Shown here piece by piece: positions 8,026 through 52,032 of a stretch of 64,000 nt of DNA; position 1 is the first letter of the stretch, and each line of letters opens with the position of its first letter. Position numbers and translations under genes: made by a program. Location of the stretch: positions 22,562 through 86,561 of the IMG/VR virus record IMGVR_UViG_3300021963_000080; one strand, given 5' to 3'. The notes beneath the pieces are model-generated. The model did not search any database. It saw only the letters and a list, made by a program, of their open reading frames with translations, and was not told where the DNA came from. The DNA is from a virus.

Positions 8026-8054
8026 TTGCCTTTTTATTAAAATAACGTTATAAT
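8026..8054 (+). promoter_or_regulatory. sigma70-type promoter
   Basis: TTGCCT-17-TATAAT. Confidence 0.75.
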
Positions 8055-8109
8055 AGAGTCATGGTGAGAAAAACACCTAATCTTATTAACTTGATGAAGG
8101 ATATTTAAA

Positions 8110-9060: not shown

Positions 9061-9075
9061 CTCAAACAAACGGTC

Positions 9076-9105
9076 AAGAGGGGGCGTTGCCCCCTTTTCG
9101 TTTTT
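9076..9105 (+). terminator. Terminator overlapping a promoter for the tmRNA
   Basis: GGGGGC-GTT-GCCCCC-TTTT; TTGCCC(9087)-17-TATCAT and GATAAATA (9120) follow. Confidence 0.7.
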
Positions 9106-9132
9106 GTGGTATCATACTGGATAAATAAAGAT

Positions 9133-9447
9133 ATTGTTGTAATCCCTTCAAAGCGAAGGAATTCTGGACGTGGGTTCGACTCCCACCAGGTCCACCAGAA
9201 AGAGTATTATAGTGGGTTCGCAAGTATGAGTCGCATTCTAAAGAGTGCCCTTGAACTGGATATAGTATTCTTCCTAATGGGCCTGCCATGGTTTCGACAG
9301 GGTTAGATAGCAGAGACGGCAACACGGTAGGCGATGACCGTAAATCAAGCAAAATTAATAACTGCAAACGATGAGTTATTCCTAGCAGCTGCTTAATTGC
9401 ACTGCATGAGTTTTGCTAGTTGAACTTGGAAACAGAATCAACTAGCC
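9133..9447 (+). ncRNA. ssrA: Circularly permuted (two-piece) tmRNA, tag (A)ANDELFLAAA
   Basis: Acceptor piece with T-arm GTGGG-TTCGACT-CCCAC and CAGGTCC-ACCA (ends 9197) lies upstream of coding piece GGGCCTG (9279); G3-U70 pair; tag frame 9364-9396; outer ends approximate. Confidence 0.92.
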
Positions 9448-39300: not shown

Positions 39301-39860
39301 ATGCTAAGATCCTTAACTTCACGGATGGAGAGGCATTTGAGGATAAAGACTGGACATTGATGGATCAAGTGACATCTGGTGCCATATACAGTGATTCATT
39401 GAATGAGGAAGACTATAGAGAATATGAGTACACATTCCCTAAAACTCCTCCATCAACATTATTGTCTGGGGTCGTTACAACATACTCGAACACTACTATT
39501 ACAGGCGTAGATACTACATTCTCTACAACAGTTGTTGCTGGGGATTTGGTCAAGATTGTTAAATCCAACACATTAACAGACTATGATTTGTTCCCTGTTG
39601 TATCTGTAGCGAATAATACGTCACTACAAGTAACATCTAACACATCGTTTACTGGGACTGGTAACACGATTGAGCTTGTAACCCAGAAGAAGGCTGCGTT
39701 CAAATATACACGTAACAATTATATTACTCGCTACCACGATTCAAACAATGCTGCATTTGATACATACAAATACATGGCAGTAAAGATTGTATTGTTATCT
39801 CCATACAATTACTTGGTGCCAACATTGAATGATGTTCGAGTGTTAGCGGTATCAGTATAA
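33363..39860 (+). CDS. Giant virion structural protein (DUF4815/VrlC-like)
   Basis: PYFDDY..KNYHRVLFKP..AVQARELTQLQ, APGADR, RTFEESGNY, RFKNGFFVD, DPLSQTF. Confidence 0.85.
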   Translation: MPLDKQTTTLAQTPYFDDYDETKNYHRVLFKPSVAVQARELTQLQTILQNQIERFGDNIFRTGTIIKGCSLTTDDQYYYVKLFDTQINGNSYTLSALTNTYVTESSSNLTAVSVNYKTGGQQTDPDLNTLYIKYLNTGTGGQKAFSNGATLTIYNRNYRVETIAINSGGTLYSNSDTIAFSGGGGAGAVAGVTTYANGTLKSIEITDNGSGYTTSPTVTVTTSTGSGANLTSFNYLAQIAVANSLYTAPTGRGYAVKTSEGVIYQKGHFIRVGSHEEVVSKYNTSPNNVVIGFHTTEAVVNSNSDQTLLDNANNSTNYTAPGADRLKLTANLVVLSTANAASNNDFLALYEFENGRIIKDRTTTQFNSINKELSKRTFEESGNYVVDPIPMYTESISGNTTHLNLVIGAGLAYVEGNRVQIYNNTKIPLRKSTNTITNDAQTISTNYGGYVYVKELLGNFDIKLGTTVTLRSTAGTDLSDNAGGSPTTPGTQIGTAQVRSLVFDAGTPGTPDCQYRLYIYDVKMSSGFSFKDVRSIAVAGVGVADVVLNADNLAVINDIQYDSLIFNTGTFGVQTLTNETFISRSQTNAAFAVGGTLSTSFSGGNTLPYSAGSTLNSVQERDFIVIPQTTLVSSTNKTGTVATTSGANTVTGTSTLFTSEYSVGQFIKVGTQDPLRIVKISSNTSIQVANNFAASLSANVHTIAYPANVPIDFQNQAGKSIAIDGTQTTLTLNLGHGLTGTGTVSIYHDIQNESPAVKVKTVKSPVFVKLSTAATTTSTTGPWCLGIPDAYEVTGVYVGSANTYSNTTTNYVNEFFLDSGQNDNYYGLSYLKKRPGSTLAIANTNCLLVSLKAFTHGVGKYISTESYASAIDDATEPLPSNKIRTQDVPVYTSPKTGKAYDLRDVIDFRPICSNTANVNATAVAGATIDPSTTITFASAEKYFPSPTREFTASVNSYLARQDRVVIDTYGGITVTEGIPANNPSGPSEPKGTMTIGMVNVAPYPSLSAKDAADSSRTDLGVYINPMQNKRYTMKDISDIERRINRLEYYALLNTLEQNTKQLVLPGEANSSIERFKNGFFVDPLTDYNVSNLNDAEYSVIIDTNKGVARPNFSDVKIDLVYDSANSTNTTKTGDIVTLSFTEKNLVQQPIANKIRTLVDQFWKYKANVSLYPPYDNYYDITRKGVSITVDIATPLNALARATSSALSQLNVSTNLDSVANVGNAIFVGMNGTNRVFEQDVLKTFTDTKVKINPGQELITQQNLGDYVTDFTLRPYIREQRIYFFTAGLRPGATHYVFFDNVNVSSYVTPASITVFTNVTENSFTVTGAKGAALVAGDNGQLAGYIDLPGGTFFVGERNVVIMDVDATASETSATSKAVGSFVAYAYGVNKTNLSLSTKTIDVTYDNSFGVANYTNTYVVSDKVRFERPDPLSQTFRVQRQLADTDGVFITGIDVFFRAKDATQGVTLELRETNNGVPSHIIVPFSRTRLSPANVSVSETASNATSFTFASPVYLKTETDYAIVIYPDANSPEYTIWTAETGVKDVANTSLISNQNWGLGTMFYSTSGTAWTPVQDEDLKFTVKRALFNNLSGTAKVHNGDYEFLTLANTEGYFTGGETVAQLSNTYLSGTFTTNVANVVVGTSSSQAAALSVGDNVLFVYSNNAAIGTGNVNVTTVTVSNGGGQTTDFVTEYSAGDFIRIGSDIRQVVAVTNSTSITIDSALSTSASNSTHYRMDPVFDVSRVTAANSSTITINKVPKLTSNASIIVNGQKVVRGVVSAYDYGNTKIYISSSTSANDTFKIQTSNSAYRGTIVGDTSQALGVVSTVDNIKANIFRPLINTLQIPGTTVSLVGTLTTNAGSTDTKSYFLTASSRLDLGDDAIIKSKSNEIVGSTITKSFTADLQMSGATTDISPLVDMNPSSVVLTRNLVNNDYTNETGRFGSATSKYVSKRIALADGLDAEDAKIFITAYKPSGTTIQVYAKILNFTDGEAFEDKDWTLMDQVTSGAIYSDSLNEEDYREYEYTFPKTPPSTLLSGVVTTYSNTTITGVDTTFSTTVVAGDLVKIVKSNTLTDYDLFPVVSVANNTSLQVTSNTSFTGTGNTIELVTQKKAAFKYTRNNYITRYHDSNNAAFDTYKYMAVKIVLLSPYNYLVPTLNDVRVLAVSV

Positions 39861-39868
39861 GGTGAGGG

Positions 39869-40087
39869 ATGCTTATCAAAACAAACGACGCCAGTTTTAT
39901 GCGCGATGAGGATACTACCGCGCTGATAAATACAAATAAGACAGCATATGATTTGTATAAACAGCAACGCAACACCATTGTAAGCAACCAAACATTAAAG
40001 GCTGAAGTTGATATGTTAAAACAAGACCTCAGCGATATTAAACAACTTTTAGGACAGATAGCACAAAATGTCGGTATCAATCGCTAA
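39869..40087 (+). CDS. Small coiled-coil protein
   Basis: RD..T.ALIN, EV..LK.DL.DIK.LL. Confidence 0.8.
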   Translation: MLIKTNDASFMRDEDTTALINTNKTAYDLYKQQRNTIVSNQTLKAEVDMLKQDLSDIKQLLGQIAQNVGINR

Positions 40088-41543
40088 CGTAAATTTATCT
40101 ACAGATACATTCCAAAACTGGTTGGATAAAACCAATCAAGTATTGGATAAGGTATCTACCGTCGTTGTCACTACCGCTGCTAATACTGCTGGCGGGTTGA
40201 CGGCTGGTAACGCAAGTGTTAATGGAATATTTTCTGCTAACGTAATTGCTGTGGGGGAAAGTCTACGTGGCGGTACTGTAACAACCGCAGCCAACCTTGC
40301 AATTACATCTAACGTTGTATTCTCAGGAGCAAACGTTGGTGGATCTGTTACAAACTTCAACTTATCGTCTTCTAACGTTGTTATTGATTCTGCTGTTACA
40401 ACAATTAGCGGTGGTACTCTTACTGTTACCTCAAATGCTAACTTCAAGAGCAATACAATCTTTATTAATACGGCAGGTCGTTTAGGGGTTAATACTGGAT
40501 CGCCTGACGCAACATTGTCTGTAGTTGGTACTGCAAACGTTTCTGGTAATGCTAAGTTTTCTGGTGTTGTTACTCTTGGCGCTAACGTCAACATCCAAGC
40601 AAATACAACTCTAACTCTATCGAGTGTTCCCAATAGCGGTTATTTGTTCTTTGGTAATACAAACTTACGCTACCTCGGATACGATGCTTCCCAATATGTG
40701 TTTGCTGTTGCAAACGTTGCTGTACAAGGCACGTTAATAGCAAACGCAATTACTGCAGCTGCAAACGTTACACTAGGAGCCGGGGTGGGCAGTGGGGTTT
40801 ATATTGTAGGGGACGTCACTGGCAATGCTAATACTTTATCAAGATCAGTAACTGCTGGTTCGTATATGTCTGGTGGTGGAACATTATCGACAAACATCAC
40901 ATTGAATGCTAATGCTTCAGCAGCTGCCACAGCAAGCGTTCTTGTAGCACGAGATGCTAATGGTAGTTTCTCTGCTAACGTTGTAACTGTCAACAACATT
41001 ACAATATCTTCTGGCACTCTAACATCAAACGTTAGTGGTACAATTACTCAATCTAATAATATCTTATTTGGCGGAACTGCATATCCTGGAGCCCTAACTT
41101 CTATTGGAAGTACGGTAGCATTAAGAGATAGTAGTGGAAATATTACTACCAACTTGTTTGTTGGTACAGCAACCGCAGCTCGATATGCTGACTTGGCTGA
41201 GATGTATTTGGCTGATCAAGATTATCCAGTAGGAACAGTTGTTAAAGTTGGCGGCTCAAAAGAAGTTACTGCATATACGGCTATTGACTACATTCGCGCT
41301 TTAGGTACAATATCTGATAAACCGGCTTATCTAATGAATAAAGACTTAGAAGGTGGCGTTCCAGTTGCATTAAAAGGTCGTGTGCCTGTTCGTGTGCTTG
41401 GATTAGTTAAAAAAGGCCAAGGATTAGCTGCAAGTGCTATTCCGGGCGTCGCAGCAATGAGTGCAATTAACTACTTTGCTATTGCACTAGAAGATTATGA
41501 AGACTTTACAAAAGAAGGGCTGATTGAGGCTGTAATTTTATGA
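40068..41543 (+). CDS. Tail-fibre-like structural protein
   Basis: TDTF..W..KTN N-terminus; C-terminal YADLAE.Y, VALKGRVPVRV domain. Confidence 0.8.
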   Translation: MSVSIANVNLSTDTFQNWLDKTNQVLDKVSTVVVTTAANTAGGLTAGNASVNGIFSANVIAVGESLRGGTVTTAANLAITSNVVFSGANVGGSVTNFNLSSSNVVIDSAVTTISGGTLTVTSNANFKSNTIFINTAGRLGVNTGSPDATLSVVGTANVSGNAKFSGVVTLGANVNIQANTTLTLSSVPNSGYLFFGNTNLRYLGYDASQYVFAVANVAVQGTLIANAITAAANVTLGAGVGSGVYIVGDVTGNANTLSRSVTAGSYMSGGGTLSTNITLNANASAAATASVLVARDANGSFSANVVTVNNITISSGTLTSNVSGTITQSNNILFGGTAYPGALTSIGSTVALRDSSGNITTNLFVGTATAARYADLAEMYLADQDYPVGTVVKVGGSKEVTAYTAIDYIRALGTISDKPAYLMNKDLEGGVPVALKGRVPVRVLGLVKKGQGLAASAIPGVAAMSAINYFAIALEDYEDFTKEGLIEAVIL

Positions 41544-41544: not shown

Positions 41545-43596
41545 ATGAAAATACAATTTGTGAATTATTCCATGGCCGCAGAGGTTCTTGGAATTGATTA
41601 TGCTTGGTTAACTCTCAAATCGTACTTCGAAGAAAACAATAAACACAAGACTCAGTGGGAATGGTTAGATCCAATCACTGAGTCTTATGCTTTTCACGTA
41701 GACGATCTCGTTAATGAAATTATAGAACGTAAACCTGATGTTCTAGGATTCTCTCTTTACGTTTGGAACGTTGGACTATCTCTACAGATAGCAAAACAAG
41801 TAAAGAACAAACTCCCTAATTGCAAGATTATTGTAGGGGGTCCTCACATAACATACAAAGAAGATATTAATTACTTTAAAGTAAATAATTTTATCGATGC
41901 TGTATGTAAAGAAGATGGTTATGGTGAGGTATTCCTTACGGAGTACTTGTACCAACTCGAACAACCGACTCCTGATCTTACCCAAGTCCCATACTGCATA
42001 TATCCGCACAACGGAATGTGGAAAGAATCATTTGCAAGTTTCTACAAACGAGATTTTAAATGGCCTGTTCGAATTTACAAACACAACAAGGCCTACATCG
42101 ATCGTCGTATAGAAAAATCAATTAAAGAAAATAAAAAACTCTACGTAGCTTATGAGACGTCGCGAGGATGTCCATTTGGTTGCACTTATTGTGAGTGGGG
42201 TGGGGGGATCAATTCTAAGGTCACTTTCAAACCAACTGAGTTAATTATAGAAGATATAGATTTTATACTTGGTTATGTAAAGCCATTTTTCTTTTCATTT
42301 ACAGACGCCAATTTCGGAATTATTGACCGAGATGTTGACATTATTAAACATATATGTGCATGGAGAAAACGTGCTTCGGTTCCTAGTATTATGTACTTCT
42401 TTGGCCCGTCAAAAGTCAACAAACACAACGTATATGAGATTGAATCTCTGACAGCAGAATATGGAATGCTTTCCGACTACAAAGTCCCTGTACAAGATCT
42501 AAACAGAGATGTGTTGAAGAATATTGACAGAACAGATGAAGATTGGAAATTGCAATTAGAAAACTATATTAAGATTAGAGAAAAGCATGGTGGCAAAATC
42601 CGACTCGAGATGATTCTTGGCTTGCCAGGTGCTACTTTAGATAGTTACTACGAAGCCTTAGATTACTCGTGTACAATGGATACGTTTGGCAAGAGGTATG
42701 TTTGGCACTTGCTACCTACAACGCCAGCATCAAAAGCAGAGTATCGAGAAAAATTTAAAATACAAACTCTGAAAACAAGCTTTGGTATGAGAAGTACGAA
42801 CGATGGTACCTTTACAATTTTAAAAAAGCATTTTGTTGAAAATTTAAATGTTGCTCGAGATCTTGTAGTTGATCCGGAATGGATGTGTCCTACAGAAATT
42901 GTAATTGAGACGATGTCTTATTCTAAAGAAGAATGGCTGACAATGTTTTTAATGGACTATGTTGTTCACCAAGCAGAAGTTGGAGAGTTACTTTCTTCTA
43001 TTACAAAATACATGGCTAGTACCGGTATTCCTCATAGCGTATTTTATAGAAAGTTGTGGGATTCTTTTCTTTTTGCAGAAGGAAATGGCCTTACACCTAC
43101 TCAGAATATCTTGCTTCAATCTATGTGGCAGCAGGGTTTAGAAAAAATACAAAAAGACGAAGCTGTTGATTTTGAATACTTCGATGTTCCGGAAAACTTC
43201 CCATTCCAAGTTCGCTGCTTGGCTGGCCCATTGTTTAACATTATGCTGTATAGTAATATTAAAGCGTTTTATATTGCACTTGCTAGATGGTGTAACATGC
43301 AGTTTGGTGAAGATCCGATTCGGGATGATTTAATTGTATATACTTCTTCTATGATTAAAAATATAAACTACACCCCTAATCAATATACTTTTTCTACTGA
43401 ATATGATTGGTCAAAATACAGGACCAATGGCGTTTTTGTTAAACGACCAACAACATACCAACCAAACGACTTAGTGCTTTGGGGTGAAATGACAGATATA
43501 AATACACGAATAAAACAACATTTTTTATCTATTTGTTCGAATATGAATGGGACAAAACTTTTTGAAAAAATAAAAGTGTCATATCCAAAAAAATAG
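41545..43596 (+). CDS. B12-binding radical SAM protein (class B methyltransferase-like)
   Basis: N-terminal PDVLGFSLYVWN...IIVGGP cobalamin domain; ETSRGCPFGCTYC; DANFG; ILGLPG. Confidence 0.88.
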   Translation: MKIQFVNYSMAAEVLGIDYAWLTLKSYFEENNKHKTQWEWLDPITESYAFHVDDLVNEIIERKPDVLGFSLYVWNVGLSLQIAKQVKNKLPNCKIIVGGPHITYKEDINYFKVNNFIDAVCKEDGYGEVFLTEYLYQLEQPTPDLTQVPYCIYPHNGMWKESFASFYKRDFKWPVRIYKHNKAYIDRRIEKSIKENKKLYVAYETSRGCPFGCTYCEWGGGINSKVTFKPTELIIEDIDFILGYVKPFFFSFTDANFGIIDRDVDIIKHICAWRKRASVPSIMYFFGPSKVNKHNVYEIESLTAEYGMLSDYKVPVQDLNRDVLKNIDRTDEDWKLQLENYIKIREKHGGKIRLEMILGLPGATLDSYYEALDYSCTMDTFGKRYVWHLLPTTPASKAEYREKFKIQTLKTSFGMRSTNDGTFTILKKHFVENLNVARDLVVDPEWMCPTEIVIETMSYSKEEWLTMFLMDYVVHQAEVGELLSSITKYMASTGIPHSVFYRKLWDSFLFAEGNGLTPTQNILLQSMWQQGLEKIQKDEAVDFEYFDVPENFPFQVRCLAGPLFNIMLYSNIKAFYIALARWCNMQFGEDPIRDDLIVYTSSMIKNINYTPNQYTFSTEYDWSKYRTNGVFVKRPTTYQPNDLVLWGEMTDINTRIKQHFLSICSNMNGTKLFEKIKVSYPKK

Positions 43597-43619
43597 ATAA
43601 AATAATAAAAGGTAAAAAC

Positions 43620-44216
43620 ATGGTTATTTTATTATCTCATACATTAGAATCCCAAACAGCTTTCAATGTACAGCAAGTCGTTAATACTTCTGAGCAGAAT
43701 TCTTTTATCGAATCGCTTCATCAGCGCAGAGCTCTTTTTCAAGGCGATACTTCTCGTGAGATAAAAGATCGTTTAATAGACGTCGCCAGACAACATCCAG
43801 AAATATACGGACAAGGTGCAGGAGACCAATGGCAGCAAGGAAATTTTGCTACGACCATATTACAAGCAGCTGAAGATGGAACATTGCAATCAAAATTTAT
43901 CTTTTGTTTTGAAAAAATATTCGATCAATTATTTCCATATGTTATTCAACAACTTCCTGCAGATCAAAAGACGTTATTGGTATATCCTGCCGTGAGTTAC
44001 AAGCCCAAAGGCGTTGATCATTTTATTGGTTGGGCTGTCAATCCCCAAGATTTTGGAATAGAGCATATGGAAGAGCACGAGCGAATTGCAAAAGAAGCAG
44101 CGCTGCATTTATCTGAAGCTCATAATAGCTGGATGAGAGAAAATCAACAACAATATGATAAATTTTTTGATGGAGCTACTTCTCAAGAAGTAATTCAATA
44201 TATTAAGGGATTATGA
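43620..44216 (+). CDS. Hypothetical protein
   Basis: AAGG RBS; TATAAATA at 43497-43504 upstream. Confidence 0.75.
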   Translation: MVILLSHTLESQTAFNVQQVVNTSEQNSFIESLHQRRALFQGDTSREIKDRLIDVARQHPEIYGQGAGDQWQQGNFATTILQAAEDGTLQSKFIFCFEKIFDQLFPYVIQQLPADQKTLLVYPAVSYKPKGVDHFIGWAVNPQDFGIEHMEEHERIAKEAALHLSEAHNSWMRENQQQYDKFFDGATSQEVIQYIKGL

Positions 44217-45181
44217 AGCATTGGCTTTTTACACGTGCCCAAAGTAGACCTCCTGATTGGGAACGTATAGCGGATAGTGTGAATCTTACTCCGATTGTGG
44301 TAAAATCAGAAACGGAGGAAAGATATTATACCGTTCCTGTTAATAAAACACTTGTTCCTGAATCAAAACATCATTATATAAAACAATGGCATCACGGTCA
44401 AACGCTAATGCAGTTTGATAAAGATGTAACGTCTCTTGCTGTTGTAAAACATAAAGATGGTGCAACAATTACGCAATCATATATTCCGGAAGTATTGCGA
44501 GATGAGTATAATAGTAGAATAATAGATTTAGATTTTCTCGAGCGCACTTTAGATAAAAAAGGATGGTGTGCTTTGGGAATGTTAGTTGAAGGAGATGAAC
44601 CAGTCACCCAAACTGCTCTCTTACGAGACTCACGTTATATTGTTAGAGACGATCAATATAGATTGTTGTTTGCTGATACAAATGAACTGTGTGGATTGGA
44701 TAGTCCTGTTAAGTCCCTGTTGTTATTTGTCGCTTTTAAATTGGGAAGAACAAACGCTTACATCCTTGTTGTGAATCCTAATATTGTTAGTTTACATGGA
44801 GAACTTGGAAGCGTTAATGAGCAACGAAGTGTAGCAGCTTGTGCTAGTTTTTCTAATATTGTACCGTGGTTTGCTTTTGCTCCCAGACTAAACTGCAATC
44901 TTATTAATAATAATACTATTGTTGTAAATAGGGGAGAACTGGAGCTTGCTATTGGAGGGGCGTCCATAATACAATATACAACTCTCCGTGGTGTTGAGAA
45001 TTTAGATTTTACAGTAGAATGTTCATGGGAATATAATGTGGTTGATAACGTTATTAGAGTTAAAAGACAGCCCGGTGTTGGTTATATAAAAATTATAACC
45101 CCTTGTATTGATATGACAAAACAATATGTAACAGCAGAAGATAGAAAAATAACATTAGAATATATTCTTTTAGGAGTATGA
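44213..45181 (+). CDS. Hypothetical protein
   Basis: ATGA overlap; 322 aa. Confidence 0.75.
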   Translation: MKHWLFTRAQSRPPDWERIADSVNLTPIVVKSETEERYYTVPVNKTLVPESKHHYIKQWHHGQTLMQFDKDVTSLAVVKHKDGATITQSYIPEVLRDEYNSRIIDLDFLERTLDKKGWCALGMLVEGDEPVTQTALLRDSRYIVRDDQYRLLFADTNELCGLDSPVKSLLLFVAFKLGRTNAYILVVNPNIVSLHGELGSVNEQRSVAACASFSNIVPWFAFAPRLNCNLINNNTIVVNRGELELAIGGASIIQYTTLRGVENLDFTVECSWEYNVVDNVIRVKRQPGVGYIKIITPCIDMTKQYVTAEDRKITLEYILLGV

Positions 45182-45182
45182 A

Positions 45183-45377
45183 ATGACAGCAGATACAACA
45201 TCGACATTTACGTCAGGGACCGGCGCCCAAGGTACCAAGACAACCGTAGATACGATCACGGCTGCCCACTTCACCCAAATGTTGGATATTGTAGATTCGT
45301 TGGTCAGTCATGGCCATACATTCTATGATGATTATTCAACTAATTGTGAGTGTCAGTGTGGACGCGGTTCGCTATAG
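45183..45377 (+). CDS. 64-aa putative precursor/substrate peptide (HxH motif, C-terminal CxCxC)
   Basis: AGGAG RBS; ...SHGHTFYDDYSTNCECQCGRGSL*. Confidence 0.75.
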   Translation: MTADTTSTFTSGTGAQGTKTTVDTITAAHFTQMLDIVDSLVSHGHTFYDDYSTNCECQCGRGSL

Positions 45378-45393
45378 ATGAATCGATTATAAC

Positions 45394-47040
45394 ATGAGTC
45401 AAGTGAACGTAGTAAAAATATACAGAACATTAAATGATGCTCAAAAAGAACGTATTGCCAATCATGCTGCAACAGTAGTTCAGCTGGAAGATGGTACGTT
45501 GAAGACAACCGTCGATACAATTATTACCCCTGCCGGTTTAGAAAAACAAAATAAACTAATAACTATTGTTCCGTCGGAAGAGGAACAAGTAAAGAGTTTT
45601 GATCAAGCAAAGCATCTATTCAGTAATTTAATTCATATGAATTTGTTGCTGACAAATGCTTGTAACTTGAGCTGTAGCTATTGTTACGAACAGCATAAAA
45701 AAGATTATGGTAGATTCACGGTTGAATCTGTAAAGCAATCATACGACTGGCTCAGCAATATTAACAAACAGCCGTTAAAGATTCTCCAGTTCTTCGGAGG
45801 CGAGCCACTAATACACAAACCACTAATTCAAGACTTCATTAAGACGTATGATGAAGAGTTGAACGCTAATTGGAATAATTATATTGGTACAGGGATCTCT
45901 ATTTGTACGAATGGGTTGTTACTAGATGATGATTTTATTGATATGTACTTTAACAAAAAGTACACGTATATGTTGATTAGCCTCGATACAATGGATCTCA
46001 AAAAAGACTACAGAGAGATCACACAAAAGCAATTAGATACAATCCTTCACAATGTTGAACGTATCACTAAGATACCGAACGTCGGAGCAAGACTGACAAT
46101 CCGCTGTACATTATCTGAAGAGACTGCTGATAGTCTACACGAATTTATAGAATCAATTTACTCAAAGGGAGTTAAGCGTTTAATTATTCACCCTTTAGTT
46201 CTCGACTCAAAACGCGGGTATATTAAATGGAGTAAGGATAATTGGAGTATGATGCGCGAGGCAATACTCGGATGTTTAGACAAGTATCAAGACTTGACCG
46301 TGTTGTTTAGTGAGGGAGTAGGAGAGAAGCAAGATAACAACTGTATGGTTGGTTCTGATATGATTGCTATTGATGGTAGTGGAGACTTCTCAGGTTGTTA
46401 TTTCTTTACAAACCAAAAAGCTGCTGCTCACGAAACTATCCTCGGTAACATATTACAAGATAGAGTGTATGTAGACCGTTACATAAAGTTTCAGAAAATC
46501 TACAACGAGATGTTTGAAGTAGAAGAGCAATGCAAGGCTTGTGATTATCAAAGTATGTGTTACCAATGTCCGGCTGGTAATATTGATACTGGTCCACGTA
46601 TGTTCAGACCAGATGATATGTGTCAAGAGATTGTAAAGTTATATCTTGATCTACAAGCAGATGTCGCAAAGAAACAATTTCGTCGTTTGTTTGAAATTAG
46701 ACTCCAACAACTACAACTTGAAGGTGAGCAGCAAACAATAGCAGCTGGAGCTGACTATATGTTGGAGTACTTGAAGACTGGCCATAGAGTAATGTTCGAT
46801 CCTTCTAAAGATAAACAATATAAACCATATAAGCAAATTTTATTAGATATTTGGTCGCACATAAGTGGAGAATCGAACGATAGTGGTGAGATGGAAGCAG
46901 TTGAGTTGTATAGATCGTTAGCCAAAAGAACTGGTATGTTACCAAAAGTTGTTGATGGAGATACGCCTGAGATAAGAGTATTTTATTTGCAATTGATTTC
47001 CACTATGATATTTAATGAGAAGAACCATGGATTTAACTAA
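45394..47040 (+). CDS. Radical SAM/SPASM protein
   Basis: CNLSCSYC, FFGGEPL, TNG; SPASM C..G...IDGSG....C, CKAC.....C..C. Confidence 0.92.
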   Translation: MSQVNVVKIYRTLNDAQKERIANHAATVVQLEDGTLKTTVDTIITPAGLEKQNKLITIVPSEEEQVKSFDQAKHLFSNLIHMNLLLTNACNLSCSYCYEQHKKDYGRFTVESVKQSYDWLSNINKQPLKILQFFGGEPLIHKPLIQDFIKTYDEELNANWNNYIGTGISICTNGLLLDDDFIDMYFNKKYTYMLISLDTMDLKKDYREITQKQLDTILHNVERITKIPNVGARLTIRCTLSEETADSLHEFIESIYSKGVKRLIIHPLVLDSKRGYIKWSKDNWSMMREAILGCLDKYQDLTVLFSEGVGEKQDNNCMVGSDMIAIDGSGDFSGCYFFTNQKAAAHETILGNILQDRVYVDRYIKFQKIYNEMFEVEEQCKACDYQSMCYQCPAGNIDTGPRMFRPDDMCQEIVKLYLDLQADVAKKQFRRLFEIRLQQLQLEGEQQTIAAGADYMLEYLKTGHRVMFDPSKDKQYKPYKQILLDIWSHISGESNDSGEMEAVELYRSLAKRTGMLPKVVDGDTPEIRVFYLQLISTMIFNEKNHGFN

Positions 47041-48091
47041 CATTAAAAGTGTAGTAATCTATCTTGGCGATACGTGTAACTTTGATTGCGTGTATTGTGA
47101 TAGAGCATTCATAAGAGAAGATGTTGGTTCTCAGAATATGAAGAGTACAGCTGTTAATGATATTGTTGCTTTTATGGATGCAGTTGTTGAGAGCGAGCAT
47201 CCGCTTCAATATGTGAGCTTCCATGGCGGCGAGCCAATGCTATATGTTAAGAAGATGGATCACATACTTGACAAGATAGCTCCCCACTTGGAAAAGATTG
47301 GTTGTAAGTTCGCAATGACTACCAACGGTTCGTTGATTGCAGAGAATGCTTGGTTTTTTGAAAAGTGGGCCGGTAAATGTCAGATTACTTTCAGCTACGA
47401 TTTCAACTATCAAGATATTAATAGAGCCCCGGTTGATTTAGAAGCTGTTGCTAAGGTATTGCATGGCACTCGAACAAACTGCTTGTTCCAATTTGTTGTT
47501 CCCATCTCTACGCCCGGAGCATTAGACTTAGAAACTTCTACAGCAATAGTTAATGCTTGTAAACTCCTTCGTTGTAATGTTGTTAACTTGATTCCTCTTA
47601 GACATTATCGCGGTAAACAGAAGTTCAAAGTTCTACTAGATGATTTAAATCTCGATAGATTCATGTATGACTTTTCTAAGATGTTACATACTTTATATGT
47701 AAACGGTGTTGTATGTTATATTGACGGAAACTATACGGATATTGACAAACAATATTTGGACAACCATGGAAAGCTAATACTTGGACCGGACGGATATCTA
47801 TATCCTGAATTTGATTTCCTCGAATATAAGCGAGATGAATTTAGAGTCGGTAAATGGAGAAACGGAATTGAATTGTATAGACAAGGAAATGAAGAGTCTC
47901 TAATTAGACCGGGTTGCACTAATTGCATCTCTCGTCAGTATTGCGGTTTGAAGTATCTCTATAAAATGTTTGACGAAGAGCCAAAAGGAAACTGCGTTAA
48001 GTTTTATCAAACCATCAACGTGCTTGTTAAGCATATGAACAAATTAAACCAGAAACCTTCATTATTACATTGGGTAGGAATAGATGAGTGA
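47027..48091 (+). CDS. Radical SAM protein with partial SPASM
   Basis: CNFDCVYC, FHGGEP, TTNG; CTNC.....C near C-terminus. Confidence 0.9.
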   Translation: MDLTNIKSVVIYLGDTCNFDCVYCDRAFIREDVGSQNMKSTAVNDIVAFMDAVVESEHPLQYVSFHGGEPMLYVKKMDHILDKIAPHLEKIGCKFAMTTNGSLIAENAWFFEKWAGKCQITFSYDFNYQDINRAPVDLEAVAKVLHGTRTNCLFQFVVPISTPGALDLETSTAIVNACKLLRCNVVNLIPLRHYRGKQKFKVLLDDLNLDRFMYDFSKMLHTLYVNGVVCYIDGNYTDIDKQYLDNHGKLILGPDGYLYPEFDFLEYKRDEFRVGKWRNGIELYRQGNEESLIRPGCTNCISRQYCGLKYLYKMFDEEPKGNCVKFYQTINVLVKHMNKLNQKPSLLHWVGIDE

Positions 48092-49205
48092 ATATGTCGG
48101 AGAAGACTTTGAGCAATACCAAGATCATACTACGTACTTTCTCAGAGAAGACTCTTTAAGTCCTCTAACGTTTGATCTTTACTTTACTCCAACATACAAA
48201 TATACTTGTCATGCTGGATGTCAGATTTGTTATATTAAGGATAAGTTAAAACAAGGGTTCTCTACGTTTCCTCAGAACGTTCCTTCTATCATATCAACAA
48301 AAGATGAGCAGCGCTGGTATGATGTGTTCGATCACTTCTACGTAATTCGTACAAACGATGATCTAACGTACCTCCGTCTCAATTATCCATACATATTTGA
48401 GTGGTACAAATCACACGGAGAGATATTTGAATATGGTATGACTGATAATGCTGTATTAACTCATCGTAAGACGCTGATGGATAATATTACAATGAAGGGT
48501 ATGGCGGATATCAGTCTCAGCGACCACTTCCTTGTAAAGACAAATAAAAACAAACAGATTATAGAAGTGTTGAATGATTATGCTTCCAAATACAACATTG
48601 CTAAAATAAAGATTATACGAACAACAGACGGACCTGCTCCTCCTCAAGTAGAGGAGATTGTCAATTGGATGAATGAGCGGGGATTGTATAACTGCTTACA
48701 ACACGATCTTAGAGATGATGCCAACGCAAGATATGATTTAGAAGGTAAGTATGATTACCAAAATACATACGTTCTAAGTCACAATAATAAAACATACCAA
48801 ATATACAGAGAAGCAATCCACTTGTACAACGATCGCTTCTTTTATAGTATTGATGATGCTACCGATATTGATTGGGATCCGTTTTTCATATTTGATAAAG
48901 ATCAAGACTTCAATCCTACTGAACTAATGTATGAGATGTTGAGCGGCAAGAAAAAGCTATACGGTAAATTTGCTAATGAAATCAAACCAACAAATAAAGT
49001 TGAGCAAAAGTTTGTCGATTACTTCAACGAAGTTCAGAAGTTTAAATTTAATCCTGATTTTAACTTTGTCCCTGAGTTTATGTTAAAATCTAATTGTAAG
49101 TTCTACCACAAATTAATACAGAGTGGGTTTAAAAGCTTCCAATACGGGTTAATTAAACCAAATTCCGGCGCTAAGACGATCCCGATTATTCAGTGGGATA
49201 AATAG
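48084..49205 (+). CDS. Divergent radical SAM-like protein
   Basis: CHAGCQIC CxxxCxxC near N-terminus; no GGEP. Confidence 0.7.
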   Translation: MSEYVGEDFEQYQDHTTYFLREDSLSPLTFDLYFTPTYKYTCHAGCQICYIKDKLKQGFSTFPQNVPSIISTKDEQRWYDVFDHFYVIRTNDDLTYLRLNYPYIFEWYKSHGEIFEYGMTDNAVLTHRKTLMDNITMKGMADISLSDHFLVKTNKNKQIIEVLNDYASKYNIAKIKIIRTTDGPAPPQVEEIVNWMNERGLYNCLQHDLRDDANARYDLEGKYDYQNTYVLSHNNKTYQIYREAIHLYNDRFFYSIDDATDIDWDPFFIFDKDQDFNPTELMYEMLSGKKKLYGKFANEIKPTNKVEQKFVDYFNEVQKFKFNPDFNFVPEFMLKSNCKFYHKLIQSGFKSFQYGLIKPNSGAKTIPIIQWDK

Positions 49206-49220
49206 CTTTAGGAGGGGAAT

Positions 49221-49613
49221 ATGGCTCAATCAGAAAGAAGTCAACAAGCTGGATATCCAAAAAATAACGACACAGGTAACGAACTTAGCACGGAACAATC
49301 GAGCATAAGAAGCAACCTGAGGTCTCGCTTCGTCACAAACAACACTGTTTTAGCAAGCGATGTGAATAACTTGCGCACGTTGATGAATGCTTTTCAGAGA
49401 CATTATCACAGATACACTGATTACGATAGAATTCAAACATACGGTAATAATGGTAGCACCGGATCAAGAGATGTAGACACTTCTATACTAGGAGGATATT
49501 CTGATCCAGGTACTGTTTCTGCGGGAGATGTGATTACAACATCTTATATCAATGGTCACGTTAATGCAGCAAATGTATTACGAAGCCACAACCACGCTAT
49601 CGACGACGCATAA
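49221..49613 (+). CDS. 130-aa protein with two helix-HxHxxxD repeats (putative substrate)
   Basis: AGGAGG RBS, GATAAATA late-type promoter at 49197; repeat shared with 45183 peptide. Confidence 0.8.
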   Translation: MAQSERSQQAGYPKNNDTGNELSTEQSSIRSNLRSRFVTNNTVLASDVNNLRTLMNAFQRHYHRYTDYDRIQTYGNNGSTGSRDVDTSILGGYSDPGTVSAGDVITTSYINGHVNAANVLRSHNHAIDDA

Positions 49614-49630
49614 CCCAATACACTTATATT

Positions 49631-50941
49631 ATGTCTTTTGCTAAATTTGAGATTAAACAAACCGGTCAAACATTCTATTATAACAACGATAGAAACTCCA
49701 TTGTAAACGCGGAAGGACAGTCGTTATCCGCTTCACCGATCCACTCCGAAGAATGGTATGCTGAGCAAGCAGCTCAAAACGGTGTTATAACAAAAACTAA
49801 TAAGCCTGTTGGGCTTCGCATTCTATTAGGACACGCTTGCAATTATTCTTGTTCCTACTGTATGCAGAAGGATATTGGAGATCCGAGTGAGCGACCAGAG
49901 AATTTCTGGACTCCTGATTTCCTTGAATCGGTAGAAAAGTATCTTGATACGTCTCTGCTAACTCGTATTGAATTGTGGGGTGGAGAACCATTTTTGTATT
50001 GGAATGATATGGTCAAAATAATGACCCATTTTGATAGTGAGAAAATATCGTGGTATATTTCCACTAACGGAAGTGCTCTACGACAGAAGCATGTTGATTT
50101 CTTCAAGCAATTGAAGTCGCCAGTTGCAATGGGAATAAGTCACGATGGACCAGGTCAGGAATCATTGCGGGGCGAGGATATATTCCAACGTCCGCAAGTT
50201 GTAGATGTATTAAAGCAACTAGATTTATTGTACCCAAAATTTCAATATAGTTTTAATCCTGTAGTAAGTAATACAAACTTTAATCTATTTGATATAAATG
50301 ATTATTTTTATAAGCTGGCTGTTGATAACCAGTTGAAGAATTGTAAGATTAGTTTTACGCTCGGTAGAACATATGATGATACAGACTCCAAGAATAGTTT
50401 TGAGCATGTAATACATGGTGAAAATTTGAAAGCATTTAAAATAATAACAGAAGATTACATGAATGCCGCAATAGAGCAGTTGAAGAAGCACGGAAGATCT
50501 AAAACTTTACCTATATTACAATCTAATATTTTTGATGGGGATACTGGTGCAATTAAGTTTGCGCAATCTGTGAAGAATGAGCTTCCAATAACAATTACAA
50601 CTAATTGCGGAGCTGATGCAAAAGATATATTGAGTGTGGATTTGAGGGGAAACGCTAGATTATGTCCTCACACACACGAAAAATACAATGGTGGCCATAT
50701 ATCTAATATCAAAGGGATAAAGATAGTATCGCTTGCTTTGGATAGAAAAAAGACACACTGTTCTGATTGTCAAGTTCGCCGGTTATGTAAGAGTTCATGT
50801 CCGATTGATTTTCCGACTGATGTATTTCTGAAGAATTGCCGTGTTGAAAAAATATGGTATGGAAGCGTACAGAATGCAGGATTCAAGATGTTATTTGGTT
50901 CAGATGTAGAATTGAAGGAAACGGGAATTGCAAGTGTATGA
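49631..50941 (+). CDS. Radical SAM/SPASM protein
   Basis: CNYSCSYC, LWGGEP, STNG, ISHDG; CG...VD..G....C, CSDC.....C...C. Confidence 0.92.
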   Translation: MSFAKFEIKQTGQTFYYNNDRNSIVNAEGQSLSASPIHSEEWYAEQAAQNGVITKTNKPVGLRILLGHACNYSCSYCMQKDIGDPSERPENFWTPDFLESVEKYLDTSLLTRIELWGGEPFLYWNDMVKIMTHFDSEKISWYISTNGSALRQKHVDFFKQLKSPVAMGISHDGPGQESLRGEDIFQRPQVVDVLKQLDLLYPKFQYSFNPVVSNTNFNLFDINDYFYKLAVDNQLKNCKISFTLGRTYDDTDSKNSFEHVIHGENLKAFKIITEDYMNAAIEQLKKHGRSKTLPILQSNIFDGDTGAIKFAQSVKNELPITITTNCGADAKDILSVDLRGNARLCPHTHEKYNGGHISNIKGIKIVSLALDRKKTHCSDCQVRRLCKSSCPIDFPTDVFLKNCRVEKIWYGSVQNAGFKMLFGSDVELKETGIASV

Positions 50942-51669
50942 TCGACACATCCCGTATTATTGCTAAACAGCAATCTTTATCTAATCACTCATTATTAGTC
51001 ACAAACTCAATCCAAACAATCGACGATTTGCGGATATTCATGGAACACCATGTATTTGCAGTTTGGGATTTTATGAGTTTGATCAAGTCGTTACAGCATA
51101 GTGCGTGTCCGTCTACTAATTTTTGGGTACCAACAACTGGTACTCGTAGCTCAATAGCAAGAACGATTAACGAGATTGTATTATGCGAAGAGTCTGATTT
51201 GACTCCTGATGGTAAATCTTCAATAAGCCATTTTGATTTATATCTCCAAGCAATGGAAGAAGTTGGAGCAAATACAGAAGCAATTGTTCGGTTTTTGGAA
51301 GCAAAAGACTTTGCAGTTATTCCGGAACCGTCCCGTGCATTTGTTGAAACAACATTCCATACAATAGATCAAGGACCCCATTGCGTTGCAGCTTCGTTTT
51401 GCTATGGGAGAGAAACAATAATCCCAGCAATGTTTAAGCGAATCCTTAGACAGCTCAATATTTCTAGCCTCGATGCTCCTAAGTTTTACTATTACTTGGA
51501 ACGTCATATCGAGGTCGATGGTGATGATCACGGCCCAAAAGCTCAGATGCTAGTTGAATATTTTTGCAAGAATGATCCGTTCAAGGCTCTTTGGGCAGAA
51601 AAAGCAGCGATTGAGGCTATAAATGCCAGGATAAAACTATTTGATCATATTGAATCTCTGGTCTTATAA
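50938..51669 (+). CDS. DUF3050 heme-oxygenase-like (di-iron) protein
   Basis: FMEHHVFAVWDFMSL.KSLQ, INEIVL.EESD, SHFDLYL.AM, YYLERHIEVDGDDHGP. Confidence 0.88.
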   Translation: MIDTSRIIAKQQSLSNHSLLVTNSIQTIDDLRIFMEHHVFAVWDFMSLIKSLQHSACPSTNFWVPTTGTRSSIARTINEIVLCEESDLTPDGKSSISHFDLYLQAMEEVGANTEAIVRFLEAKDFAVIPEPSRAFVETTFHTIDQGPHCVAASFCYGRETIIPAMFKRILRQLNISSLDAPKFYYYLERHIEVDGDDHGPKAQMLVEYFCKNDPFKALWAEKAAIEAINARIKLFDHIESLVL

Positions 51670-51702: not shown

Positions 51703-52032
51703 ATGGCTATCAAAGCAAATCTAATAATTGATCAAGGCGCGACCTACGCAACCAAGCTAAACATTACAGATGCAAATGGAAGTGCTGTGGATTTGACGGG
51801 GTATTCAGCTGCCGCTCAAATAAGAAAGCATTACACTTCATCCAATTCAACCTCGTTCTCAGTCAGTCTTACACCGGCGACTGGGGCTGTTGTCCTGTCT
51901 CTTTCGTCTAATGCCACTGCTAATTTGATTGCTGGACGTTATGTTTATGATGTTGAGTTGATAGATGGTGCTGGTAGAATTTCCAGAATCATCGAGGGTA
52001 CAGTTACAATAACACCAAATGTAACGAGATAA
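51703..52032 (+). CDS. Conserved small virion protein
   Basis: NL.IDQGAT, DLTGY...AQIRK.Y.S, GRYVYDVE, EG.V...P.VTR. Confidence 0.85.
   Translation: MAIKANLIIDQGATYATKLNITDANGSAVDLTGYSAAAQIRKHYTSSNSTSFSVSLTPATGAVVLSLSSNATANLIAGRYVYDVELIDGAGRISRIIEGTVTITPNVTR

What the first reader, a model, noticed from the sequence alone, without database searches (positions are those of the whole stretch)
41545..51669. RiPP-like radical SAM cluster embedded in the tail-fibre module: candidate phage system for post-translational modification of virion proteins
Seen: ten co-oriented, tightly packed genes lie between two tail-structural genes. They comprise a cobalamin-binding rSAM, three GGEP-type rSAMs with SPASM-type cysteines, a divergent CxxxCxxC protein, a DUF3050 protein, two unknowns and two small proteins. 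Late-type promoters occur at 43497 (TATAAATA) and 49197 (GATAAATA). Established: rSAM/SPASM enzymes crosslink peptides (ranthipeptides, sactipeptides, cyclophanes), B12-rSAMs methylate unactivated carbons, and heme-oxygenase-like di-iron enzymes tailor peptides and amino acids. Inference: a late-expressed maturation pathway acting on phage-encoded small proteins or fibre tips, or making a phage RiPP. This is not part of the canonical T4 gene set.
Basis: partly seen in the sequence, partly recalled or inferred. Interest (0 to 1): 0.9.

Follow-up and report, generated by a model that had tools for sequence, protein, structure and literature searches.

The report
Phage radical-SAM cassette for cysteine-ladder fibre proteins
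Inside its tail-fibre genes this T4-like water phage carries five radical-SAM enzymes and an oxygenase next to two tiny proteins, one ending in alternating cysteines, and the same enzyme-plus-cysteine-ladder pairing at fibre genes of many unrelated phages suggests that phages chemically cross-link part of their host-binding apparatus.

Summary
The ten genes are real and as described. They are a B12-radical SAM (rSAM), three rSAM enzymes with SPASM-type cysteines, a fourth divergent rSAM, a DUF3050 (HamA-like) oxygenase, two unknowns and two small proteins.

The core is conserved in order in 18 related IMG/VR loci and in Ralstonia jumbo phage RP12. It consists of the 130-aa protein, the 322-aa protein, the 64-aa protein, four rSAMs and DUF3050.

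The 436-aa rSAM family has at least 589 viral relatives. A protein with an alternating-cysteine run lies in 52 of 80 viral loci and 56 of 80 bacterial loci, against 1 hit each in shuffled DNA. The window's only such run is the 64-aa protein (NCECQC). In phages JWF, RSP15 and other loci the run ends true tail-fibre proteins, sometimes capped by a Hint domain. No protease or exporter was found.

Best reading (about 0.6): enzymatic cross-linking, probably by thioethers, of fibre-associated small proteins. The chemistry is untested.

None of 9 literature searches returned a description of this in phages. CrpC/CrpA and QhpD/QhpC are the nearest precedents.

This scan reached the same reading earlier on other phage DNA. 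Those notes are not independent evidence.

New here are the B12-rSAM plus 198-aa module, a three-cysteine ladder, and three helix-HxH units split 2+1 between the small proteins.

The parts
40068..41543 (+). 491-aa tail-fibre-like protein. Its C-terminal ~140 residues are conserved and travel with the cassette.
   Evidence: PHROG phrog_22593 (8e-19) and phrog_19602 tail fibre (2e-7). The C-terminal domain was found in 14 of the 18 related loci. It is also present on the opposite strand when the order is rearranged.
41545..43596 (+). 683-aa B12-binding radical SAM enzyme, a putative C-methyltransferase. It is an accessory, not core, part.
   Evidence: Pfam PF02310 and PF04055. PDB TokK 7kdx (1e-34) and CysS (4e-34). 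Cluster of 11 members among the 80 viral loci, usually next to the fibre gene.
43620..44216 (+). 198-aa protein of unknown function, the partner of the B12 enzyme.
   Evidence: No Pfam, NCBIfam or PHROG hit. Relatives occur only directly after the B12-rSAM, in L024, L042, L046, L052 and L102.
44213..45181 (+). 322-aa conserved core protein. It has an N-terminal alpha/beta domain without a recognised fold and a C-terminal Ig-like sandwich.
   Evidence: Cluster of 36 members, always just upstream or downstream of the 64-aa gene. AF2 model pLDDT 87.4, pTM 0.87. Only residues 215-322 match Ig-like domains, Z 5.4-7.8. Foldseek gave no global match.
45183..45377 (+). 64-aa small protein. It has a variable Thr/Ser/Gly N-terminus, one helix-HxHxFYDDY unit, a cysteine ladder and a C-terminal RGSL. 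It is the candidate substrate.
   Evidence: Alignment of 15 sequences has invariant Q32, M33, L40, H43, H45, F47, D49, Y51, C57, C59, R61 and G62. AGGAG lies 7 nt upstream of the ATG, which follows the upstream stop directly. There are 7 close clusters in the 5.8-billion-protein set.
45345..45359 (+). Cysteine ladder CECQC (Cys55, Cys57, Cys59).
   Evidence: It is the only match to C[NDEQA]C[NDEQA]C in all six frames of the 64-kb window.
45394..47040 (+). 548-aa radical SAM/SPASM enzyme. The nearest model is the PapB ranthipeptide maturase.
   Evidence: Pfam Radical_SAM 6e-17. NF047865 PapB 118.6 bits over the full profile length, below the cut-off of 340. phrog_1802 5e-41.
47015..48091 (+). 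358-aa radical SAM enzyme with a partial (twitch-like) auxiliary-cluster motif.
   Evidence: Pfam Radical_SAM 8e-9. phrog_1802 6e-29. CX2CX5C only.
48084..49205 (+). 373-aa divergent radical SAM-like protein (CHAGCQIC, no GGEP, no auxiliary cysteines).
   Evidence: phrog_36229 2e-35. ESM Atlas nearest clusters carry PF04055, score 0.96. Cluster of 44 members, seen only in full cassettes.
49198..49204 (+). ATAAATA late-promoter-like core, ending 17 nt upstream of the 130-aa gene.
   Evidence: It is one of 7 of 11 + strand ATAAATA sites that lie within 60 nt upstream of a gene start. AGGAGG follows it.
49221..49613 (+). 130-aa small protein with two helix-HxHxxxD units and no cysteine. It is a candidate second substrate or partner of the 64-aa protein.
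   Evidence: Alignment of 28 sequences has invariant H61, H63, G75, H123, H125 and D129. phrog_31780. AF2 model pLDDT 80.9. No PDB fold or sequence match.
49631..50941 (+). 436-aa radical SAM/SPASM enzyme with all seven SPASM cysteines. This is the family that accompanies cysteine ladders across phages.
   Evidence: Alignment A3 has invariant CNYSCxYC, GGE and C326...C345...C377xxC380x5C386x3C390. At least 589 viral and 91 bacterial-genome relatives.
50938..51669 (+). DUF3050 haem-oxygenase-like oxygenase, related to HamA. The ORF is open from 50854 and the likely start is 50938.
   Evidence: Pfam PF11251 243 bits. PDB 9vwb HamA 2.5e-49, with Glu84, His96 and His199 equivalents conserved. ATGA overlap with the upstream stop.
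51703..52032 (+). 109-aa fibre-module protein that follows the cassette in the T4-like relatives.
   Evidence: phrog_1084 1e-29 and phrog_3304 'L-shaped tail fiber protein assembly' 3e-24. Found after DUF3050 in 12 loci. An ATAAATA site ends 31 nt upstream.

Best explanation
The cluster is a protein-maturation cassette of the phage's host-recognition (tail-fibre) module. Its substrates are the two small phage proteins.

The 64-aa protein carries one helix-HxH unit followed by a cysteine ladder (NCECQC) near its C-terminus. The 130-aa protein carries two helix-HxH units.

The 436-aa rSAM/SPASM enzyme belongs to the family that travels with cysteine ladders in hundreds of phages. I infer that it, and probably the PapB-like 548-aa enzyme, convert ladder cysteines into thioether (ranthionine-type) cross-links. 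The acceptors would be neighbouring Glu/Gln/Asn/Asp or Tyr/Asp residues. Such links would give a covalent staple that can form in the reducing cytoplasm.

The 358-aa and 373-aa rSAMs, the DUF3050 oxygenase and, in this sub-lineage, the B12-rSAM add further cross-links, hydroxylation and C-methylation.

The 322-aa protein, with its Ig-like C-terminal domain, is a non-catalytic partner, either a scaffold or a chaperone.

The finished small proteins are parts of, or assembly factors for, the adjacent fibre.

Shown here: the gene content, the conservation, the enzyme-ladder association and the fibre context. Inferred: the chemistry, which enzyme does what, and virion incorporation.
For: 1. Conserved cassette. 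In the 18 related IMG/VR loci, 64-aa, 548-aa and 358-aa relatives were each found in 15, and 130-aa relatives in 14. Most of the remaining loci are cut contigs.
2. Jumbo phage RP12 has the same set, including an unannotated 65-aa homologue ending NCNCNCACTRGSL, beside virion structural genes.
3. Enzyme-ladder link. 51 of 1504 called genes in 80 viral loci carry C.C.C, against a mean of 3.5 and a maximum of 10 in 200 shuffles.
4. With the strict pattern C[NDEQA]C[NDEQA]C read in six frames, 52 of 80 viral loci and 56 of 80 bacterial loci have a hit, against 1 hit each in shuffled DNA. The window has exactly one hit, the 64-aa gene.
5. A further 10 of the 28 ladder-less viral loci have a Gly-rich ORF starting with a CGAC(AC) motif followed by a poly-Gly run.
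6. Ladders on true fibres. JWF gp028 is a T4 gp36-like fibre with NCNCDCNCNCSC directly before a Hint domain. RSP15 ORF048, annotated as a side tail fibre, ends NCQCGN. Each lies two or three genes upstream of the rSAM.
7. Ladder proteins L094 and L099 hit tail-fibre PHROGs (2.6e-5 and 8.6e-17), and L087 hits a virion structural PHROG. L092 has a Hint domain after its ladder.
8. A tail-fibre assembly chaperone (PF16778) and S74-ended fibres are neighbours of the enzyme.
9. Enzyme type. PapB is the best NCBIfam model for the 548-aa enzyme, followed by nif11, CXXX-repeat, QhpD and SCIFF maturases.
10. No protease or exporter domain was found in any of the ten proteins.
11. Precedent. CrpC installs ranthionine links on the 29-kDa protein CrpA (PMC13692751; abstract, Discussion and passages read).
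12. HamA (DUF3050) oxygenates a protein-tethered valine (PMC12522199; abstract, introduction, methods and passages read).
Against: No biochemical or proteomic datum exists for any member of the system.
- All NCBIfam maturase hits lie far below their cut-offs, so the chemistry cannot be read from family membership.
- The nearest solved relative of the 436-aa enzyme is a cyclopropylglycine synthase (8vpo, 1e-12), not a thioether synthase.
- The 64-aa and 130-aa proteins hit no tail PHROG and no PDB entry. Their link to fibres rests on gene position only.
- The 130-aa protein has no cysteine, so thioethers cannot explain its role.
- Five of 8 ladder proteins scanned had no PHROG hit.
- A few distant bacterial relatives of the enzyme sit in ordinary RiPP-like clusters, with an ATP-grasp protein and a small peptide (L138, L139, L164, L167, L168).
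- L038 keeps both small proteins with only one core rSAM on the DNA held.
Confidence: 0.6

Rival explanations
1. A free phage RiPP. The 64-aa protein is a leader-core precursor whose modified C-terminal peptide is released at lysis and acts as a bacteriocin, signal or anti-defence peptide. The fibre neighbourhood only reflects late co-expression.
For: The leader-like helix plus Cys-rich C-terminus resembles ranthipeptide or SCIFF precursors, and the best enzyme model is PapB. Distant bacterial relatives of the enzyme lie in RiPP-like clusters with small peptides. Variable tailoring genes occur in the cassette, as in natural-product clusters.
Against: There is no protease, no exporter and no immunity gene. 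The whole 64-aa protein is conserved, including its last four residues, and there is no hypervariable core. The same ladder ends 200-680-aa fibre proteins. The system lies in fibre modules in at least four unrelated phage types.
Confidence: 0.12
2. A metal- or cofactor-bearing small subunit. The HxH units and the cysteine ladder bind metal or carry a built-in cofactor, as in the gamma subunit of quinohemoprotein amine dehydrogenase. The enzymes would build that centre for a redox or metal-handling function of the phage or the infected cell.
For: Invariant His and Asp residues, and three helix-HxH units per cassette. QhpD is among the better NCBIfam hits (74 bits). The authors suggest that CrpA may bind metals (PMC13692751, Discussion read).
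Against: There are no partner redox subunits in the cassette. The ladder also occurs without HxH units on fibre ends. Metal binding and cross-linking are not exclusive, so this partly overlaps the best explanation.
Confidence: 0.12
3. An auxiliary metabolic pathway for a small molecule (lipid, cofactor or nucleoside modification) that merely sits in the variable host-recognition island. The small ORFs would be unrelated.
For: The nearest solved relatives of the B12-rSAM (TokK, CysS) and the characterised DUF3050 (HamA) act in small-molecule pathways. Ketoacyl synthase, desaturases and an aminotransferase occur in the variable slot of some relatives. The pelagimyophage paper lists rSAM cassettes among variable genes of the host recognition cluster (PMC7029224, passages read).
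Against: The small proteins co-occur with the enzymes across very distant lineages and rearrangements. Three of the rSAMs are of the SPASM peptide-maturase type. The ladder association is far above chance.
Confidence: 0.06

Closest known systems
CrpC/CrpA/CrpB of Methanococcus voltae (Dieter et al. 2026, PMC13692751; abstract, Discussion and passages read)
   Same: An rSAM/SPASM enzyme is encoded next to a cysteine-rich protein, with the cysteines concentrated at the C-terminus. A second protein shares the recognition region. The product is a modified protein rather than a cleaved peptide, and ranthionine links were shown experimentally.
   Different: The CrpC family model TIGR04463 scores 53 bits for the 548-aa enzyme against a cut-off of 525. 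It is archaeal and has no virus context ('phage' occurs 0 times in that paper). It has one enzyme rather than five, and no HxH units, DUF3050 or B12 enzyme.
PapB/PapA (freyrasin) and other ranthipeptide or SCIFF systems (NCBIfam NF047865, TIGR03974)
   Same: PapB is the best-scoring curated model for the 548-aa enzyme and aligns over its full length. The substrate is Cys-rich with acidic or amide residues beside the cysteines.
   Different: The score is 118.6 against a cut-off of 340. PapA's Cys-X3-Asp repeats (recalled) are replaced here by strictly alternating C-x-C-x-C. There is no leader protease or exporter. The context is a fibre module.
QhpD/QhpC maturation of the gamma subunit of quinohemoprotein amine dehydrogenase (TIGR03906; biology recalled)
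   Same: An rSAM/SPASM enzyme staples a small structural subunit with Cys-to-Asp/Glu thioethers. Further oxidative tailoring is done by a separate enzyme.
   Different: The model scores 74 and 42 bits against a cut-off of 453. There are no dehydrogenase subunits, no protease and no exporter here.
HamA (DUF3050) of fragin biosynthesis, PDB 9vwb (PMC12522199)
   Same: The match to the 271-aa protein is 2.5e-49 over nearly the full length. Three named iron ligands are conserved. HamA acts on an amino acid bound to a protein (a T domain).
   Different: HamA works in an NRPS pathway together with an N-oxygenase. There is no NRPS here. The position aligned to the reported Glu184 is not conserved by my count.
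Radical SAM gene cassettes in the host recognition cluster of pelagimyophages (Zaragoza-Solas et al. 2020, PMC7029224; passages read)
   Same: The genomic place is the same: a variable island after the VrlC-like giant protein, which here is the 2165-aa DUF4815 protein, among tail-fibre genes of T4-like aquatic phages.
   Different: That paper only records the cassettes as a difference between two genomes. It names no substrate, ladder or function. I did not test whether its cassettes are homologous to this one.

Membership tests
Radical SAM superfamily (PF04055) | CX3CX2C cluster motif and a Pfam score above the gathering cut-off | tested here: met
   Four proteins (683, 548, 358 and 436 aa) score 32-63 bits against a cut-off of 29.5, and all carry the motif. 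The 373-aa protein has the motif only, with no Pfam hit, plus ESM Atlas similarity of 0.96. For that protein the result is inconclusive.
SPASM domain (PF13186) | A seven-cysteine motif including CX2CX5CX3C, and an HMM score above the cut-off | tested here: inconclusive
   The 436-aa enzyme has the canonical cysteine pattern, invariant in 7 aligned relatives, but no Pfam SPASM hit. The 548-aa enzyme scores 19.2 bits against 21.5 and has CX2CX5CX2C. The 358-aa enzyme has CX2CX5C only.
PapB ranthipeptide maturase (NF047865) | Equivalog score of at least 340 bits | tested here: not met
   Scores are 118.6, 54.0 and 44.4 bits for the 548-, 358- and 436-aa proteins.
CrpC family (TIGR04463) | Score of at least 525 bits | tested here: not met
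   The 548-aa protein scores 53 bits.
QhpD (TIGR03906) and anaerobic sulfatase maturase (TIGR03942) | Scores of at least 453 and at least 349 bits | tested here: not met
   QhpD scores 74.1 and 42 bits. anSME scores 45.7 and 44.8 bits.
Class B (cobalamin-dependent) radical SAM methyltransferases | An N-terminal B12-binding domain followed by an rSAM core, with similarity to characterised members | tested here: met
   PF02310 scores 44.2 bits against 32.1, together with PF04055. TokK matches at 1e-34 and CysS at 4e-34. The KedN5 subfamily model scores 115.6 against 700, so that subfamily is not met.
DUF3050 / HamA-like haem-oxygenase-like oxygenases (PF11251) | Pfam score above the cut-off and conserved iron ligands | tested here: met
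   The score is 243 bits against 22.2. Equivalents of Glu84, His96 and His199 are conserved. The position aligned to the reported Glu184 is not clearly conserved.
Canonical RiPP gene cluster | A precursor with a cleavable leader, plus a leader protease and/or an exporter | tested here: not met
   None of the ten proteins has a protease or transporter domain. The 198-aa and 322-aa proteins have no hits, and the 322-aa model shows no protease fold. A host protease cannot be excluded.
Tail-fibre protein (for the 64-aa and 130-aa proteins) | Sequence or fold similarity to known fibre proteins, or detection in virions | tested here: inconclusive
   There is no tail PHROG hit, no PDB sequence match (best E 0.12 and 0.18), and no fold match for the 130-aa model. 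Virion proteomics of RP31 is in a supplement that I could not open.

The most novel reading that the evidence does not exclude
The 130-aa and 64-aa proteins together supply three helix-HxH units, split 2+1 here and 1+2 in the Ewingella element. These units would assemble into a pseudo-trimeric bundle. Its six histidines would bind a metal as in trimeric phage fibres (T4 gp37, recalled). The single cysteine ladder would then be locked by radical-SAM thioethers and further methylated by a B12 enzyme. Phages would thus use radical chemistry to build a covalently stapled, metal-loaded tip or adaptor of the host-binding fibre. That would be a class of virion post-translational modification not found in the papers searched here.
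Probability: 0.25. Interest if true: 0.9.

Novelty: new variant of a known kind. Interest (0 to 1): 0.8.

Why it matters
Phage tail fibres are thought to mature by folding, chaperones and self-cleavage. Enzymatic radical cross-linking, hydroxylation or methylation of fibre-associated proteins would add a new layer to how phages build and diversify their host-recognition apparatus.

The system is widespread. At least 589 viral contigs encode a relative of the enzyme, and cultured carriers exist (RP12/RP31, JWF, RSP15, and an Ewingella prophage-like element). It is therefore directly testable.

It would also extend RiPP-type enzymology to structural proteins of viruses. It would provide compact enzyme-tag pairs (a C-terminal Cys ladder plus one rSAM) that could interest protein engineers.

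Tried and rejected
1. A megablast of the whole cluster against 50,697 phage records found no match. Protein-level searches were needed.

2. I tested whether the 322-aa partner is homologous to the ~270-330-aa Ig-ended partners (c27/c84) of the single-rSAM systems. hhalign of A4 against A5 gave probability 0.2 and E 0.28, so no relation was detected. Only the Ig-like C-terminal end is analogous.

3. Fold searches for the 322-aa model gave only generic Ig-like matches for residues 215-322. The N-terminal domain was not searched alone. The 130-aa model gave no match (best Foldseek E 1.8).

4. PDB profile searches with the two small-protein alignments found nothing meaningful.

5. The six-frame search with the loose pattern C.C.C was too noisy, at 0.127 against 0.07 hits per kb near and far from the enzyme. 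I replaced it with the strict pattern.

6. My greedy gene calling missed ladder ORFs in high-GC loci and in L056. The counts are therefore lower bounds.

7. The idea that the three extra rSAMs map one-to-one to the three HxH units is not supported. L038 keeps both small proteins with a single core rSAM on the DNA held.

8. TATAAATA as such is not enriched.

9. Nine literature searches were run. None returned a paper describing rSAM modification of phage fibres.
   - Of the 32 papers holding both 'tail fiber' and 'radical SAM' I saw the listing of 30. I read passages of PMC7029224, PMC5468394 and PMC12801897.
   - Papers of subscription journals are not in the library.
   - Supplements are closed. 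Supplementary Tables S2 and S3 of PMC5468394 (RP31 virion proteomics) could show whether the homologues of ORF074 or of the small ORF are in virions.

10. The expression tools (look-up of sequencing runs, read laying) and the search of protein representatives were not used.

Full report
**What is there**

The window is part of an 86.6-kb IMG/VR virus record, estimated about 51% complete. It is a T4-like phage only distantly related to cultured ones. Its gp6-like wedge protein is 32-34% identical to those of Caulobacter phage Cr30, the Sinorhizobium phiM12 group and cyanomyophages.

The cluster lies after a 2165-aa DUF4815/VrlC-like protein, among fibre genes. This is the region that the pelagimyophage literature calls the host recognition cluster (PMC7029224, passages read).

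All ten ORFs of the finding exist, are co-oriented and are tightly packed.
- a B12-binding rSAM of 683 aa
- three rSAMs of 548, 358 and 436 aa with GGEP and C-terminal cysteine motifs
- a 373-aa protein with CHAGCQIC that the ESM Atlas places among viral rSAM clusters (0.96)
- a DUF3050 protein
- two proteins without any hit (198 and 322 aa)
- two small proteins of 64 and 130 aa

These assignments rest.

**The conserved core**

A scan of IMG/VR with the 436-aa enzyme returned 18 loci. Those not cut by a contig end share one order:

1. a fibre gene with the C-terminal domain of the 491-aa protein
2. a ~125-aa gene
3. the 130-aa homologue
4. a variable slot
5. the 322-aa homologue
6. the 64-aa homologue
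7. the 548-, 358-, 373- and 436-aa enzymes
8. DUF3050
9. the 109-aa fibre-module gene

Ralstonia jumbo phage RP12, a phiKZ relative, has the same set as ORF074-ORF080, next to virion structural genes. It includes an unannotated 65-aa homologue of the small protein. Its authors listed the enzymes only under 'other genes' (PMC5468394, passages read).

In the present window and its nearest relatives the 130-aa gene has moved to between the 373-aa and 436-aa genes. A B12-rSAM plus 198-aa pair follows the fibre gene.

**The small proteins**

The 64-aa family is conserved along its whole structured part. It comprises a helix (..QML..L..L), then HxHxFYDDY, then alternating cysteines, then RG[ST]x at the very end. 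H43, H45, F47, D49, Y51, C57, C59, R61 and G62 are invariant in 15 sequences.

The 130-aa family has two helix-HxHxxxD units and no cysteine. H61, H63, G75, H123, H125 and D129 are invariant in 28 sequences.

Both genes have strong ribosome-binding sites.

A crude motif count shows the 2+1 split of units in most full cassettes. The counts are noisy. In an Ewingella element the split is 1+2 by eye.

Neither family matches any PDB sequence. The confident model of the 130-aa protein (pLDDT 81) has no fold match.

**The decisive comparison**

Relatives of the 436-aa enzyme at about 27% identity occur as single rSAMs inside the tail modules of Achromobacter siphophage JWF and Ralstonia phage RSP15. 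There the nearby fibre proteins carry the same cysteine ladder:
- JWF gp028 reads ..NCNCDCNCNCSC immediately before a Hint self-cleaving domain.
- RSP15 ORF048 ends ..NCQCGN.

The association with ladders in the best 80 loci is as follows:
- 51 of 1504 called genes have C.C.C, against 3.5 expected by shuffling.
- With a strict pattern read in six frames, 52 of 80 loci have a ladder, against one hit in shuffled DNA.
- The 64-kb window has a single hit, the 64-aa gene.

Among the 28 viral loci without a strict ladder:
- 10 have a Gly-rich ORF that begins with a CGAC(AC) motif followed by a poly-Gly run
- about ten are cut where the small gene would lie
- the rest are degenerate or unexplained (L057, L058, L062, L086, L091, L097)

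In bacterial genomes 91 relatives were found. Of the 80 loci kept, 56 have a ladder, usually two residues before the stop and within 1 kb upstream of the enzyme.

Ladder proteins hit tail-fibre or virion PHROGs in 3 of 8 cases scanned, and two carry Hint domains. Neighbours include a tail-fibre assembly chaperone and fibres with S74 chaperone ends.

A few distant bacterial relatives lie in ordinary RiPP-like clusters. This fits an origin of the phage enzymes from peptide maturases.

**Other parts**

- *The 322-aa protein.* It gives a confident model (pLDDT 87). The model has an Ig-like C-terminal domain and an N-terminal domain that matched nothing in the runs made. I found no relation to the Ig-ended partners of the single-rSAM systems.
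- *The DUF3050 protein.* It is a close relative of HamA (2.5e-49) and has three of the reported iron ligands. HamA is described as a mono-iron, 2OG-dependent oxygenase acting on carrier-bound valine (PMC12522199; abstract, introduction, methods and passages read).
- *The B12-rSAM.* It resembles the C-methyltransferases TokK and CysS.
- *The variable slot.* In relatives it holds a rubrerythrin-like di-iron protein, desaturases, a ketoacyl synthase or an aminotransferase.
- *Proteases and exporters.* No such domain is present in the window's cassette.

**Promoters**

The core ATAAATA, however, lies within 60 nt upstream of gene starts in 7 of 11 cases. These include the 130-aa gene (49198) and the 109-aa gene (51666), but not the site at 43498.

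**Reading**

The evidence shows a conserved, widespread pairing of one rSAM/SPASM family with alternating-cysteine runs that sit on, or next to, tail fibres.

I infer that the enzymes cross-link the ladder, most likely through thioethers. Three points support this:
- the enzyme type (PapB is the best model)
- the Asn, Asp, Glu or Gln residues between the cysteines
- the recent demonstration that a SPASM enzyme installs ranthionines on a whole protein (PMC13692751)

The family scores are far below the cut-offs, so this is 'works like', not 'is a member of'. Which enzyme acts on the HxH units, what the B12 enzyme methylates, and whether the small proteins end up in the virion all remain open.

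**Earlier notes of this scan**

After I had reached this reading I looked up earlier notes. More than a dozen follow-ups on other phage DNA describe the same ladder-plus-rSAM system with the same interpretation. They are AI notes, not independent evidence.

They gave me the lead to the CrpC paper, which I then read. They also gave me the idea that the two small proteins pair, which I tested only by counting units.

Specific to this window are:
- the B12-rSAM plus 198-aa module
- the short three-cysteine ladder, shared by the sub-lineage with that module
- the relocated 130-aa gene with a promoter-like site of its own

Noticed in passing
L023:592-2530, L030:8-1234, L028:1732-2958 (- strand), L031:2206-2994: The slot between the 130-aa and 322-aa homologues holds different genes in different relatives. 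They include a fatty-acid desaturase (PF00487), a beta-ketoacyl synthase, a class-III aminotransferase and a rubrerythrin-like di-iron protein. They may be further tailoring enzymes (lipidation?) or unrelated auxiliary genes of the variable island.
   Followed up: partly
L103:11974-15787 (Bdellovibrio MAG contig): The full cassette lies in a bacterial contig a few kb from three proteins. Two of them have pilin-like N-termini. All three have C-terminal domains that hit tail-fibre PHROGs (phrog_5668, 1e-15 to 4e-18). They resemble the fibre-like adhesins reported for Bdellovibrio (recalled). The fibre link may therefore extend beyond phages.
   Followed up: partly
L137 (Ewingella americana E4 scaffold), 51-9272: An isolate genome carries the cassette after a fibre ending ..WRQVWPSTYS, the same ending as RP12 ORF073 and the fibres in L056 and L076. 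Three minus-strand genes are inserted between two rSAMs, there is no DUF3050, and an endolysin lies downstream. It is a culturable system for experiments.
   Followed up: partly
L091:8001-... (543-kb IMG/VR contig): Five rSAM genes of this family lie in tandem in a giant-phage contig. No strict cysteine ladder lies within the 17.6 kb held.
   Followed up: no
window 33300, 49198, 51666, 52221, 57764, 61654, 63118: ATAAATA sites lie 5-57 nt upstream of structural gene starts. Of 11 + strand sites in 21653-64000, 7 are so placed. This is probably the phage's late-promoter core, as in T4-like phages.
   Followed up: partly
L039-L045, L048, L051, L060, L068 (class with a single rSAM): A fibre-like protein ending in a poly-Gly run is followed by a 120-160-aa Gly-rich protein. 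That protein starts with a CGAC(AC) motif and a poly-Gly run and ends ..WVATGTR.G.I.. A tail-fibre assembly chaperone, a cupin-like protein and a desaturase lie nearby. This is a different substrate type for the same enzyme family.
   Followed up: partly
window 33363-39860: The 2165-aa protein with DUF4815 (9e-55) and phrog_358 matches the VrlC-type giant baseplate protein that marks the start of the host recognition cluster in pelagi- and cyanomyophages.
   Followed up: no
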